Source: a virus
Lineage: Duplodnaviria > Caudoviricetes
IMG/VR virus record: IMGVR_UViG_3300021255_000109
Span: 64,001-128,000 of that record
Direction: 5' to 3' (one strand)
DNA length: 64,000 nucleotides
Part shown: positions 1 to 15,402 of the stretch, piece by piece
Position numbering within the stretch: the stretch's first letter is position 1
Layout: every line of letters starts with the position of its first letter
Program-made: the position numbers and the translations under genes
Notes under the pieces: model-generated
Told to the model about the DNA's origin: nothing
Seen by the model: the letters and a program-made list of their open reading frames with translations, nothing else
Databases searched by the model: none

Positions 1-470
1 ATGGCAAACTTCCTTATTAGCATTTCCTTGGTTTGTGCCAGGCGGCCAGCCTAACACCTAACAAGGATTATTCTCCCACTGGGAGCGTCTATTGCGGAAG
101 CGACAAGACACCGTCCTAACTTGAGAAATATATTTTGCGCTAACTACCCCCGACACCTTACGTTCGTAAGGTATCATTCTCTTGTCACCAAGAGAATGAT
201 TCATCTTCATCCTGGCTATCGTCAGGGTAGATATAGTCGACACCTAAGTGTGGTAGTTACCTCAGCACAATGGTATTTGCTCTGCACTGAGTTACACATT
301 TTTTCAAAGTTCAATAGGAATCAGTCAAAATCAGCATCGCCACGAGAAGGCTTCCTATATGATGCCATGCGGTTTTGAGGTTAACCGTAAACCTTGATAG
401 TGTGGCTCTCGCCCAAAGGAATACCCGGCCGCCGCACTCCACTCTTTGAATGATGAACTCTTCTAATCCT
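1..470 (-). ncRNA. large structured ncRNA candidate (possibly GOLLD/ROOL-like), may extend past window start
   Basis: No credible ORF. Successive hairpins, e.g. ATCATTCTCTTG-GTGA-CAAGAGAATGAT (GNRA loop on minus strand) and CCTTAC/GTAAGG. Lies downstream of tRNA-Gln. Confidence 0.5.
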
Positions 471-611: not shown

Positions 612-734
612 CAAGGCTGCTTACTTTTTGGAGTTATTAATCTTCCAATTGATTTACAATTGCTAAGCAAAAGACAGGACTCGAACCTGCAACGCATAAC
701 TTGGAATAAAGCTACTATTTGCTGTCACAGCCTT
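612..734 (-). ncRNA. skipping-rope-like element enclosing a circularly permuted tRNA (Gly TCC / Trp CCA ambiguous)
   Basis: AAGGCTG-TGA-CAGCAAAT ... CAGCCTTG; inside, T-arm and 3' acceptor precede 5' acceptor and D-arm. Confidence 0.7.
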
Positions 735-765: not shown

Positions 766-887
766 CAAGACACTTTAGAAAAATGATTATCAGTCATTCG
801 CGTCAACCATTGCGCCAATTTGCCTAAGGTGGCAAATATCGGATTTGAACCGATACTCTCTAAAAAGAGATTTGCTGTATGTGTCTT
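766..887 (-). ncRNA. skipping-rope-like element enclosing a circularly permuted tRNA-Ile(GAT)
   Basis: AAGACAC-ATA-CAGCAAAT ... GTGTCTTG; inside ATCGG-TTCAAAT-CCGAT, ATTTGCC-ACCTTA-GGCAAAT, D-arm, AATGA-CT GAT AA-TCATT. Confidence 0.8.
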
Positions 888-1438: not shown

Positions 1439-1995
1439 TAGGAGAGATGGGAATCGAACCCATGACCTCAGGTTTGATTCCAAGATGTTATTCATTAATT
1501 ATTTTATTCACCACCTTTTCTAATTCATATTCAGTAGCAAATGTAATTCCTCTAATTTGTCCATTCTTAGGCGGAATAAATCTTAATCTTTTTATCCCAG
1601 AACTACAACATTCATCTACTGGAATTAAATAAGTTTTACCTTCATAAGAAGTCATAAAATAATCAATTTGTTCTTTTGTATAGGCATGTTTTACAAACTT
1701 TCCATTTCTCGTAGTTTTATTTGCGGTATTAAATTCTATATATCCGTTGTCTATATGTGAAGTATTAGCTGTTTTAACTTGAATTTTATAAAATTTATTA
1801 TTTATTTCAACTACGAAATCATAACGTTCACAATCTCCATATGGAGTTAAAACATTATAACCTAATTTTAAAAATGATAACATACATTCTACTTCTGTAA
1901 TATTACCTTTTTGTTTTGACATTAACATATTGTTAATAATCAATGAATAATTCTTTGAATCAGACCTGCACTCTAACCTTCTGAGCTACTCTCCT
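1439..1995 (-). tRNA. trnI: split tRNA, most likely Ile(GAT); exons about 1959-1995 and 1439-1475
   Basis: 5' half AGGAGAG..CAGGT-CTGAT and 3' half AA-ACCTG..TTCGATT..CTCTCCT-A flank a ~483-nt insert. Confidence 0.75.
1488..1943 (-). CDS. PD-(D/E)XK endonuclease inside the tRNA insert (group I intron-associated PD-(D/E)XK-like family)
   Basis: Motifs KGNITE...YDFVV...KIQVKT...IDYF; true start may be an ATG at about 1928 or 1922. Confidence 0.8.
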   Translation of the reverse strand: MIINNMLMSKQKGNITEVECMLSFLKLGYNVLTPYGDCERYDFVVEINNKFYKIQVKTANTSHIDNGYIEFNTANKTTRNGKFVKHAYTKEQIDYFMTSYEGKTYLIPVDECCSSGIKRLRFIPPKNGQIRGITFATEYELEKVVNKIINE

Positions 1996-2139: not shown

Positions 2140-2265
2140 CAACTTGCGGGTACTTTCCGCGACAGCCGCTTAACCAATTCGACTTTCTTAGCTTTCACTA
2201 ATGAGAACCTCACGCATTGTCGGTCTTGTCCTCCCTATCGTTAGGCTTCCACTTGCCGCAAGTTG
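2140..2265 (-). ncRNA. structured RNA candidate closed by 10-bp stem
   Basis: CAACTTGCGG...CCGCAAGTTG terminal inverted repeat with internal hairpins. Confidence 0.45.
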
Positions 2266-2272
2266 ATTTTAG

Positions 2273-2391
2273 TGGGGGACAGAGGACTCGAACCTCCAAA
2301 CACCGGCTCCCTAAGCTTTGTAAAAATTGCTGACACGGTTTTTATTCAAGACCAGACATAACGGCGGCTTTTCCTATTTGCCTAATCCCCC
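2273..2391 (-). tRNA. Leu-like tRNA whose anticodon arm is interrupted by an inside-out skipping-rope element
   Basis: GGGGGAT/GTCCCCC acceptor, GGC/GCC D-arm, GGAGG-TTCGAGT-CCTCT T-arm; insert GGTCTTGA-ATAA-AAACC-GTGT-CAGCAATT then ..CT TAG GG.. Confidence 0.65.
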
Positions 2392-2394
2392 AAA

Positions 2395-2466
2395 TACCGG
2401 ATCTCGGATTCGAACCGAGAAAACAACCTTCGTAGGGTCGCAGTTTATCCATTAGCTTAATCCGGC
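2395..2466 (-). tRNA. trnR: tRNA-Arg(ACG)
   Basis: Cloverleaf; CGACC-CT ACG AA-GGTTG. Confidence 0.88.
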
Positions 2467-2658
2467 TTATGCGCGCTCGATTGGCGTCAAGCGCACGACT
2501 TCATATGCGCCAACATATGAAGGTTTTGGTTTAATATCGGGAAAACCACGACACGCCTCAAGAGCAATGCCAAAACCCGCAAGCACTTACCTCTTAATCC
2601 GTCTATTGCCTCGCTTCTCATCTTCGAGCATAAGCTACTACAATCGCTTTTAAGAGAA

Positions 2659-6148: not shown

Positions 6149-6242
6149 TAAAAAATATTGTAGGTTACAACAACCTGTCAAAGTACCTTAAAGGCTTCAT
6201 AACAAAATAGTACAATTTCTACAGTGAGTAACCTACAATATT

Positions 6243-6295
6243 AACCCCTCTGCGTTTACACTGGCTTGGGAACAGTCCATTGGGCCGCATTAGTT
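6243..6295 (-). ncRNA. twister ribozyme (type P1)
   Basis: Minus strand AACTAATGCGGCCCAATGGACTGTTCCCAAGCCAGTGTAAACGCAGAGGGGTT: U^AA site, P2 TGCG/CGCA, P4 ACTG/CAGT with loop TTCCCAAGC, 3' GAGGG pseudoknot partner. Confidence 0.8.
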
Positions 6296-6504
6296 TTTAA
6301 TTTTAAGTAAGGAGTAAAAAGAAGATTTATTGTCCCCGTATTATTTGACAATAAATAGAGATAAAAAACTCTCCTTAACATACAGTTTTGTTGTTTCTAA
6401 ATCTGGCACTATATAGAAAGGATGGCACCTTACAGCCTAACCGCCAATTATTTTTGATTAGGTTTTCCAGTAGTAAGGCTTAATGTATAGTGTCAATTTA
6501 AAAA

Positions 6505-6627
6505 CAAGTCGCTTCGTTTTTTGGTGTACAAAATGGGACTCGAACCCACAATTTTTAAATCCTAAATTTAACGCCATTCCTATTTGGCTATTCGTACGAT
6601 TAACGTAACATTTGCTGTATGCGACTT
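6505..6627 (-). ncRNA. skipping-rope-like element enclosing an intact tRNA
   Basis: AAGTCGC-ATA-CAGCAAAT ... GCGACTTG. Confidence 0.75.
6522..6597 (-). tRNA. trnL: tRNA-Leu(TAG), short variable loop, encoded CCA
   Basis: GTACGAA/TTTGTAC-ACCA; TTAAA-TT TAG GA-TTTAA. Confidence 0.75.
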
Positions 6628-6925: not shown

Positions 6926-6991
6926 CAAGACGAATTATAACAAGTTTTGTTTACCGACACAAATTGTTTTAAAAATTGCAGAAATCGTCTT
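6926..6991 (-). ncRNA. skipping-rope-like element
   Basis: AAGACGA-TTT-CTGCAATT...TCGTCTTG; first element after promoter 6995-7037. Confidence 0.65.
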
Positions 6992-7753: not shown

Positions 7754-7819
7754 CAAGACATTTTAGTTTTTCCCAAATTGGATGGCTGAGATAACAAACT
7801 TGTTTGCTGCAAATGTCTT
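7754..7819 (-). ncRNA. skipping-rope-like element
   Basis: AAGACATTT-G-CAGCAAAC...AAATGTCTTG; first element after promoter 7825-7866. Confidence 0.65.
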
Positions 7820-8310: not shown

Positions 8311-8365
8311 AAATTGACCTACCCTGGTACGCATTGTTAAGAGGCGTGATAGGTACTGATATAAT

Positions 8366-15226: not shown

Positions 15227-15238
15227 TTCACTAACTAA

Positions 15239-15309
15239 CAAGAGCGCAAGGACTCGAACCCTGACCTGGAGTTTTGGAGACTCATATGCTACCATTACAC
15301 TACGCCCTT
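15239..15309 (-). tRNA. trnW: tRNA-Trp(CCA)
   Basis: TGAGT-CT CCA AA-ACTCC. Confidence 0.9.
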
Positions 15310-15314
15310 ATATA

Positions 15315-15402
15315 CAAGACGCCGACCTGATTTGTTTCTTTTATTCAGGATTTAATTAATTAATTAATTTTGGCGAAACTAGTAATTGCCGTACAGCGTC
15401 TC
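15315..15402 (-). ncRNA. skipping-rope-like element (variant CGGCAATT)
   Basis: GAGACGC-TGTA-CGGCAATT...GCGTCTTG; first element after promoter 15405-15451. Confidence 0.55.

What the first reader, a model, noticed from the sequence alone, without database searches (positions are those of the whole stretch)
612..734. Second permuted tRNA, opened in the anticodon loop with TCCAA on both ends
Order: TTCCAA-GTTAT, T-arm GCAGG-TTCGAGT-CCTGT, CTTTTGC-TTA-GCAATTG, D-arm AATC/GATT, ATAAC-TCCAA. Joining at the duplicated TCCAA rebuilds an anticodon loop readable as Gly(TCC) or Trp(CCA). The breakpoint differs from the neighbouring element, implying independent permutation. The acceptor stem has two mismatches, so it may be a mimic rather than a chargeable tRNA.
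Basis: partly seen in the sequence, partly recalled or inferred. Interest (0 to 1): 0.75.

Follow-up and report, generated by a model that had tools for sequence, protein, structure and literature searches.

The report
Phage Y-like RNA mimicking tRNA
This 123-base phage gene holds all the arms of a tRNA in back-to-front order, but it is most likely a tRNA look-alike partner RNA of a Ro60-shaped phage protein, one member of a widespread uncatalogued phage RNA family, and not a tRNA gene that gets re-joined.

Summary
On the minus strand, 734->612 reads: 7-bp closing stem, conserved ACAGCAAAU, anticodon-stem strand, T arm, acceptor-like hairpin (3-nt loop, 5 of 7 pairs), D arm, other anticodon-stem strand, closing stem.

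The reading as a permuted tRNA gene is only partly supported.
- A covariance model built only from 40 such elements of other phages finds 612-734 as its best full-length hit (73.6 bits, E 6e-12).
- Rfam's YrlA (tRNA-like Y RNA) has the same order of arms, but the match is far below threshold (26.4 against 69 bits).
- The closing stem plus CAGCAA "handle" recurs about ten times in this phage and hundreds of times in others. Its cargo varies: whole tRNAs, permuted tRNAs, anticodon hairpins, non-tRNA hairpins.
- The handle travels with a DUF2828-vWA protein. This phage encodes one 6 kb downstream, and its predicted fold matches only Ro60 proteins at full length. Of 80 loci chosen by that protein alone, 66 carry handles on the gene's strand and 4 on the other.
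- The phage has no splicing endonuclease and no RtcB. The element has no CCA and no defined anticodon, and I found no sequence orthologue.

Binding to the protein is inferred, not shown. The scan has met this system before, beside this stretch and in at least 41 other genomes.

The parts
728..734 (-). 5' strand of the closing (handle) stem, AAGGCUG
   Evidence: Pairs 7 of 7 with 613-619. In the family this stem covaries: all 7 pairs show changes on both sides. 242 of 422 motif instances have a fixed-register partner against 23 in shuffles.
717..725 (-). Conserved single-stranded handle motif ACAGCAAAU, two bases after the stem
   Evidence: ACAGCAA is invariant in alignments A1 and A3. It recurs in this phage with covarying stems.
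696..716 (-). Linker, TTCCAA, and GUUAU (700-696), the strand that pairs with AUAAC 637-633 like an anticodon stem
   Evidence: Sequence reading. A possible extra helix GCUUU 712-708 with AAAGU 627-623 is my reading only; RNAfold prefers a local hairpin here.
674..690 (-). T arm GCAGG-UUCGAGU-CCUGU
   Evidence: Matched by the Rfam tRNA, Rfam YrlA and R1 models. The T stem covaries in the family.
657..673 (-). Acceptor-like hairpin CUUUUGC-UUA-GCAAUUG (5 of 7 pairs, 3-nt loop, no CCA)
   Evidence: two mismatches marked. In the family a perfect 7-bp hairpin follows the T stem in 38 of 116 unselected cases against 3.1 expected.
639..654 (-). D arm AAUC-AAUUGGAA-GAUU, preceded by UA (656-655)
   Evidence: D-arm columns are conserved and covary.
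620..637 (-). AUAAC (637-633), the second TCCAA (632-628) and an A-rich 3' linker
   Evidence: Sequence reading.
612..619 (-). 3' strand of the closing stem CAGCCUU plus the conserved following G (612)
   Evidence: G follows the 3' strand in 212 of 242 family elements.
766..887 (-). Neighbouring element of the same family: same handle, T arm, perfect acceptor hairpin, D arm and an intact GAU anticodon arm
   Evidence: R1 67.3 bits. Orthologues in L119, L143, L026.

Best explanation
612-734 (minus strand) encodes a small non-coding RNA of the Y-RNA kind. Its two ends pair into a 7-bp stem. Together with the adjacent unpaired CAGCAA motif, that stem forms a 'handle'. The handle is inferred to be bound by the phage's Ro60-shaped ring protein (DUF2828 + vWA, G000:57021-58577, same strand, 6 kb downstream). 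The rest folds as a tRNA body without an anticodon loop: T arm, capped acceptor-like hairpin and D arm, in the topology of bacterial YrlA. The tRNA-shaped module would then hold the ring next to, or compete for, factors that recognise the tRNA elbow, such as an exonuclease like PNPase, RNase P, or tRNA-modifying or tRNA-cutting enzymes. It is not re-joined into a decoding tRNA. Shown here: the anatomy, membership of a covarying RNA family, the Ro60-like fold of the protein, and the genomic linkage of RNA and protein. Inferred: binding, processing and the downstream partner.
For: The architecture equals the YrlA consensus. It is the top full-length hit of R1, whose seed holds no window sequence (73.6 bits). 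All four helices covary, both in the seed and in an independent set found beside DUF2828 genes (90% of cells paired against 63% shuffled and 36-45% slid; 22 of 23 pairs compensatory). The DUF2828/DUF7788 protein has a vWA MIDAS-like DxSxS motif, invariant D318, S320 and S322. Its AF2 model (pLDDT 80) has 13 top PDB matches that are all Ro60/TROVE over the full length: 9KOP and 9L5Y of a Thermus phage, 2NVO, 1YVP. PHROG 850 is named 'RNA-binding protein'. Linkage: 36 of 50 handle-bearing records, and 16 of 17 that are at least 90% complete, encode DUF2828. Of 80 loci picked by the protein alone, 66 have closed handles on the gene's strand against 4 on the other, 161 against 5 elements. Of 44 R1 hits there, 43 are co-oriented, many directly upstream of the gene. 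Precedent: YrlA with Rsr (PMC4201824), and phage phiLo Ro60 binding two Y-like RNAs and host PNPase (PMC12135203).
Against: No binding or expression data. The Rfam YrlA score is far below the gathering score (26.4 against 69), and the canonical GNCGAA motif is replaced by CAGCAA. Pfam TROVE does not hit the protein. This copy has no detectable sequence orthologue: a relative whose Ro60-like protein is 84% identical goes straight from the 766-887 orthologue to a tRNA. Its acceptor hairpin is imperfect, so this particular copy could be young or decaying. The thermodynamic fold alone does not give the cloverleaf-like structure.
Confidence: 0.68

Rival explanations
1. A genuine permuted tRNA gene. 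The transcript's ends are cut and ligated, directly or through a circle, to rebuild an anticodon loop (Trp-CCA or Gly-UCC). The acceptor loop is then opened by RNase P and 3' trimming plus CCA addition, giving a working tRNA.
For: All arms are present, and ARAGORN accepts the re-joined sequence. TCCAA lies on both sides of the stem. No tRNA-Gly gene was found in the window. M. smegmatis YrlA is cut by RNase P and receives CCA in vivo (PMC4201824). Seven of 45 family members carry N-CCA right after the acceptor 3' strand (my count).
Against: The flanks are the conserved handle, not a bulge-helix-bulge motif. The phage has no splicing endonuclease and no RtcB. The acceptor has 5 of 7 pairs, a 3-nt loop and no CCA. 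A join at TCCAA gives a 5-nt loop, and the anticodon changes with the join. A normal tRNA-Trp exists at 15238-15310. The same handle encloses non-tRNA cargo.
Confidence: 0.06
2. The 3' half of one split tRNA lying next to the 5' half of another. That is, a tRNA at 823->666 interrupted by a 110-nt insert, as the Rfam tRNA model suggests.
For: RF00005 aligns 823-666 at 27.2 bits.
Against: The score is below the gathering score (29), and the acceptor pairs only partly. The 5' half belongs to 766-887, which has its own perfect 7-bp acceptor partner and is conserved as a closed unit in L119, L143 and L026. In L143 no counterpart of 612-734 follows it. R1 models each unit separately at 67 and 74 bits.
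Confidence: 0.02
3. A recent, possibly decaying, duplicate of the handle family with no function of its own.
For: No orthologue found, two acceptor mismatches, the shortest acceptor loop among those seen.
Against: The handle, T loop, D loop GG and both stems are intact, and it scores highest of all window elements with R1.
Confidence: 0.12
4. The stem + CAGCAA module is a processing or stability signal read by some other factor, for example a host or phage RNase that matures the tRNA array. On this reading the Ro60-like gene is linked only because both belong to a tRNA/RNA-repair island.
For: One element encloses a normal CCA-ending tRNA (6505-6627). The elements sit inside the tRNA array.
Against: The linkage is tight and strand-specific even in loci chosen by the protein alone, with elements directly upstream of the gene. 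A terminal stem with a bulged conserved motif is the known Ro60 binding mode (PMC12135203).
Confidence: 0.1

Closest known systems
YrlA, the tRNA-like Y RNA bound by bacterial and mycobacteriophage Ro60/Rsr (Rfam RF02553; Chen et al. 2014, PMC4201824)
   Same: Same size class and same topology: a 5'-3' terminal stem with a conserved bulged motif, then T arm, acceptor-like hairpin and D arm, with the anticodon stem replaced by the stem that leads to the ends. Encoded in a genome with a Ro60-fold ring + vWA protein on the same strand.
   Different: Handle motif CAGCAA instead of GNCGAA(N)G. Score far below Rfam's threshold. The protein is DUF2828/DUF7788, which Pfam TROVE does not recognise. About ten handle RNAs per phage instead of one to four, with the handle attached to tRNA bodies at several different positions and to non-tRNA cargo.
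Thermus phage phiLo Ro60 with Yrl1/Yrl2 (PMC12135203; PDB 9KOP, 9L5Y)
   Same: A phage-encoded Ro60 ring with phage-encoded partner RNAs that have a terminal stem and a bulged motif. It is the best structural match of the protein here.
   Different: The phiLo RNAs were picked by their CGAA motif; in the passages I read they are not described as tRNA-like, and YrlA is not mentioned. Sequence identity of the proteins is about 16-17%.
Circularly permuted tRNA genes of Cyanidioschyzon merolae, some green algae and archaea (from my own knowledge: Soma et al. 2007; Chan et al. 2011)
   Same: The 3' half is encoded upstream of the 5' half, and the acceptor strands are joined by a short linker.
   Different: Those have a bulge-helix-bulge motif cut by the splicing endonuclease, a defined anticodon loop after ligation and a processable acceptor linker. 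None of these is seen here, and neither a splicing endonuclease nor RtcB was found in the phage; weak sub-threshold RNA_ligase matches were not followed up.

Membership tests
YrlA / Y RNA (Rfam RF02553) | Terminal 5'-3' stem, then T arm, acceptor-like hairpin, D arm (tRNA-like domain without anticodon loop) | tested here: met
   The cmscan alignment covers model positions 1-114 in that order. R1 alignment.
YrlA / Y RNA (Rfam RF02553) | Score at or above Rfam's gathering threshold | tested here: not met
   26.4 bits against 69.
YrlA / Y RNA (Rfam RF02553) | Conserved GNCGAAN0-1G (CGAA) motif on the 5' strand of the Ro60-binding module | tested here: not met
   The corresponding position holds ACAGCAAAU. 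Motif as defined in PMC4201824 and PMC12135203.
YrlA / Y RNA (Rfam RF02553) | Encoded near a Ro60 (TROVE + vWA) gene | tested here: inconclusive
   No Pfam TROVE in the phage. A DUF2828-vWA protein with a Ro60 fold lies 6 kb downstream on the same strand, and the family-wide linkage is strong.
YrlA / Y RNA (Rfam RF02553) | Physically bound by Ro60 | not testable with these tools
   Needs pull-down or gel shift.
Circularly permuted tRNA gene (Cyanidioschyzon type) | 3' half upstream of 5' half, all arms present | tested here: met
Circularly permuted tRNA gene (Cyanidioschyzon type) | Bulge-helix-bulge motif at the leader/trailer and a splicing endonuclease plus ligase to join the ends | tested here: not met
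   The flanks form a 7-bp stem with a one-sided bulge carrying CAGCAA. No tRNA_int_endo and no RtcB in the phage. Host enzymes were not examined.
Circularly permuted tRNA gene (Cyanidioschyzon type) | A defined 7-nt anticodon loop after joining, and a 7-bp acceptor stem with a processable linker | tested here: not met
   5-nt loop at the TCCAA join, anticodon call changes with the join. Acceptor 5 of 7 pairs, 3-nt loop, no CCA.
Canonical tRNA (Rfam RF00005) | Contiguous cloverleaf scoring above threshold | tested here: not met
   ARAGORN and cmscan find nothing within 612-734 alone. The only hit spans 666-823 at 27.2 bits, below 29.
CAGCAA-handle RNAs of phages with a Ro60-like DUF2828 protein (uncatalogued; defined here by model R1) | 7-bp covarying closing stem, ACAGCAA two bases after it, G after the 3' strand, tRNA-derived cargo | tested here: met
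   73.6 bits, E 5.8e-12, full length, with a seed that excludes this window. Features read.

The most novel reading that the evidence does not exclude
The CAGCAA-handle RNAs, this one included, are display stands. The Ro60-like ring holds out tRNA bodies or tRNA parts (elbow-only bodies like this one, Lys-UUU anticodon hairpins, whole permuted tRNAs) to trap or redirect host enzymes that attack or modify tRNAs during infection. Members with a good 7-bp acceptor and an encoded CCA would be opened by RNase P into two-piece, possibly chargeable tRNAs clamped by the handle.
Probability: 0.2. Interest if true: 0.85.

Novelty: new variant of a known kind. Interest (0 to 1): 0.6.

Why it matters
Y RNAs and Ro60 are known from animals, some bacteria and a few phages, but what their tRNA-like modules do is still open. 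Here a divergent Ro60-shaped protein found in many large phages comes with a whole set of partner-like RNAs. They share one handle but present different tRNA pieces. That makes the question testable: what does the tRNA mimic recruit? It also flags a large RNA family absent from Rfam 15 and from the papers I could search. Finally, it warns annotators that 'permuted' or 'split' tRNAs in phage tRNA arrays may be protein-partner RNAs, not tRNA genes.

Tried and rejected
- blastn of 560-960 against GenBank phages found nothing.
- Pfam TROVE in the phage: no match. RtcB and CCA-adding enzyme: none. tRNA-splicing endonuclease: none. RNA_ligase: only weak sub-threshold matches, not followed.
- The single-sequence AF2 model of the protein was useless (pLDDT 38) and was replaced by a model with a 26-sequence alignment. 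phmmer against PDB sequences found no Ro60.
- Orthologue hunt for 612-734: blastn against all fetched loci gave only 20-nt T-arm matches. An exact-pattern scan of IMG/VR gave 0 hits.
- I considered a self-cleaving ribozyme or intron role for the handle. No Rfam ribozyme or intron family matches 500-1000 even at E up to 10.
- Literature searches for permuted tRNA in phages, ACAGCAA, DUF2828 and DUF7788 gave nothing relevant.
- My first loose search for closing stems had a high chance rate, about 0.4 per motif by my estimate, so I replaced it by a fixed-register test with shuffles. The alignment-based acceptor test used sequences preselected for pairing and is superseded.
- The script machine was lost. 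The comparison of this tRNA-like body with the phage's own tRNAs (to test an origin from tRNA-Trp) was therefore not done, and the CCA and anticodon-loop tallies are hand counts.

Full report
SETTING. The window is bases 64001-128000 of a complete 180,778-bp IMG/VR phage genome with terminal repeats. Its first 17 kb carry, on the minus strand, 24 ARAGORN tRNAs and a ROOL RNA. The finding lies between a neighbouring odd element (766-887) and tRNA-Gln (530-604).

OBSERVATION. Read on the minus strand, 734->612 contains in this order:
- AAGGCUG, UG, ACAGCAAAU and a linker ending in UUCCAA;
- GUUAU and the variable stretch GCGUU;
- the T arm GCAGG-UUCGAGU-CCUGU;
- CUUUUGC-UUA-GCAAUUG, then UA;
- the D arm AAUC-AAUUGGAA-GAUU, then A and AUAAC;
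- UCCAA and an A-rich linker, then CAGCCUU and G.

If I re-join the halves, ARAGORN calls a tRNA. It calls Trp-CCA, Gly-UCC or Leu-CAA depending only on how I build the loop. A join at the duplicated TCCAA with the full 5-bp stem leaves a 5-nt loop.

WHAT IT RESEMBLES. With permissive thresholds Rfam gives two sub-threshold hits. One is YrlA (Y RNA-like) over 614-714 at 26.4 bits (gathering 69), covering the whole model. The other is a tRNA spanning 666-823 at 27.2 bits (gathering 29), which borrows the 5' half of the neighbour. The YrlA consensus has exactly this order: outer stems, T arm, acceptor-like hairpin, D arm (Chen et al. 2014, PMC4201824).

A FAMILY. The motif ACAGCAAAU with a preceding 7-nt strand and a distal complement recurs in this phage, with stems that differ in sequence but stay complementary:
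- AAGACAC/GUGUCUU at 766-887;
- AAGGCAC/GUGCCUU at 2007-2087;
- AAGUCGC/GCGACUU at 6505-6627, which encloses a normal CCA-ending tRNA;
- further copies with degenerate motifs at 6926-6991, 7754-7819 and 15315-15402.

In those loci, 242 of 422 non-identical motif instances have a perfectly complementary 7-mer in a fixed register 30-210 nt downstream, against 23 (maximum 32) when the strands are shuffled among instances. G follows the 3' strand in 212 of the 242. Among 116 unselected motif + T-arm cases, 38 have a perfect 7-bp hairpin starting right after the T stem, against 3.1 expected. So the permuted order T arm, capped acceptor, D arm is a common cargo layout.

Other cargos are lone anticodon-like hairpins, hairpins with no tRNA likeness, and permuted bodies that keep an anticodon arm either before the T arm or after the D arm. 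At least 18 of the 89 short elements carry the loop CUUUUAA, that of tRNA-Lys(UUU); this is a hand count.

MEMBERSHIP OF THIS ELEMENT. I aligned 40 elements from other phages (A3) and wrote the four helices as the structure. From this I built model R1. In the window its best hit is 612-734, full length, at 73.6 bits and E 5.8e-12. The neighbour 766-887 is second at 67.3 bits. The seed was preselected for pairing, so its 98% pairing is by construction. I therefore ran R1 on 80 loci fetched only through the protein described below. The 44 hits show 90% paired cells, against 63% in shuffles and 36-45% when partners are slid. Twenty-two of 23 pairs have changes on both sides.

THE PROTEIN. Pfam TROVE finds nothing in the phage. 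A note of this scan (e1-5822122) pointed to a DUF2828-vWA protein, which I then tested.
- The phage encodes a 518-aa DUF2828 + DUF7788 protein at G000:57021-58577 on the minus strand, downstream of the array.
- An alignment of 26 relatives shows an invariant DxSxS vWA motif.
- The AF2 model built with that alignment has pLDDT 80.
- Foldseek against the PDB returns Ro60/TROVE proteins as the 13 best matches, over 530-607 alignment columns with probability 1.00: Thermus phage phiLo Ro60 (9KOP, 9L5Y), Deinococcus Rsr (2NVO), Xenopus and human Ro60. Only after these come isolated vWA domains.
- PHROGs names the family 'RNA-binding protein'.

LINKAGE.
- Of 50 records carrying the RNA pattern, 36 encode DUF2828, as do 16 of the 17 that are at least 90% complete. 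None of 14 control genomes does.
- Conversely, of 80 loci chosen only because they encode a relative of the protein (gene plus or minus 6 kb), 66 hold at least one closed handle on the gene's strand and 4 on the opposite strand. That is 161 against 5 elements.
- Of the 44 R1 hits, 43 are co-oriented with the gene, many within a few hundred bases upstream of it. This is the arrangement known for rsr and its Y RNAs.

INTERPRETATION. The best reading is a Y-like RNA. The stem plus the bulged CAGCAA plays the part of the Ro60-binding module; published Y RNAs have 'a 5'-3' stem flanking a bulge with CGAA' (PMC12135203). The tRNA-shaped domain is the effector module, as in YrlA. Binding is inferred from fold, anatomy and linkage only.

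What the tRNA module recruits is unknown. Precedents are PNPase (RYPER; also the phiLo phage, PMC12135203) and tRNA enzymes acting on YrlA (TruB, DusA, RNase P, CCA-adding enzyme; PMC4201824). For this copy, the 3-nt acceptor loop and two mismatches make RNase P opening unlikely.

RIVALS.
- A true permuted tRNA gene is unlikely. There is no bulge-helix-bulge motif, no endonuclease or RtcB in the phage, no CCA and no defined anticodon. The same flanks also enclose non-tRNA cargo.
- The '666-823 split tRNA' is contradicted by relatives. The 766-887 unit is conserved as a closed unit in L119, L143 and L026, and in L143 it is followed directly by a tRNA, with no counterpart of 612-734.
- That same fact, together with the empty pattern scan, means this copy has no known orthologue. 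It may be a recent or decaying duplicate.

LIMITS. There are no expression data. The promoter-like site at 765-736 just upstream is no better than chance. RNAfold alone does not recover the tRNA-like fold (z -1.96). The script machine failed, so the origin of this body (for example from tRNA-Trp by tandem duplication, which the two TCCAA copies would fit) was not tested.

EARLIER NOTES OF THIS SCAN. The same handle/Ro60-like pairing was noted beside this stretch and in at least 41 other genomes. My tests were run independently of those reports and agree with them.

Noticed in passing
window 1-315 (-): ROOL RNA, 149 bits, model positions 1-302 of 574, cut by the window edge. It lies just downstream of the tRNA array and the handle RNAs.
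   Followed up: no
window 1439-1995 (-): The two halves of a tRNA (GAU-like anticodon loop) are separated by an insert holding a 151-aa PD-(D/E)XK endonuclease ORF (1488-1943, PDDEXK_5, E 6e-29). No Rfam intron family matches there.
   Followed up: partly
window 6242-6296 (-): Twister-P1 ribozyme-like match at 47.7 bits, below the gathering score of 67.2 but E 5e-8, inside the tRNA array.
   Followed up: no
window 8317-8353 (-) and 52743-52985 (+): abiF RNA motif just above threshold (39.1 against 37 bits) next to tRNA-Asn, and a full-length group I intron (106.5 bits) far from the array.
   Followed up: no
window 6505-6627 (-): The same handle encloses a normally ordered, AT-rich tRNA with an encoded CCA (ARAGORN Leu-tag, 6522-6597). 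So the handle is also attached at the acceptor end.
   Followed up: partly
L012:7222-7331, L012:1807-1943, L053:2571-2679, L058:1691-1812, L067:1019-1135, L086:4226-4345, L105:2363-2474: In 7 of 45 permuted family members, the loop capping the acceptor hairpin starts with N-CCA exactly where a tRNA 3' end would be; about 1% would be expected by chance. This hints that some members derive from, or are opened into, CCA-ending molecules (hand count).
   Followed up: partly
short elements of L002-L120, e.g. L029, L043, L111, L114: Many 55-70-nt handle elements carry only an anticodon-like hairpin. At least 18 of 89 have the loop CUUUUAA of tRNA-Lys(UUU); others have CUUGAAA, CUGCAAA or CUGAUAA (hand count). 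These are possible mimics of the targets of anticodon nucleases.
   Followed up: partly
window 23500-50000: Under table 11 the window has only 31 ORFs of 150 aa or more in 64 kb, with long stretches nearly empty of them. I did not test whether another genetic code or many small genes explains this.
   Followed up: no
window 2225-2468 (-): A normally ordered tRNA-like sequence with an extra insert in its anticodon arm, and weak R1 matches (29.1 and 15.6 bits), next to tRNA-Arg.
   Followed up: no
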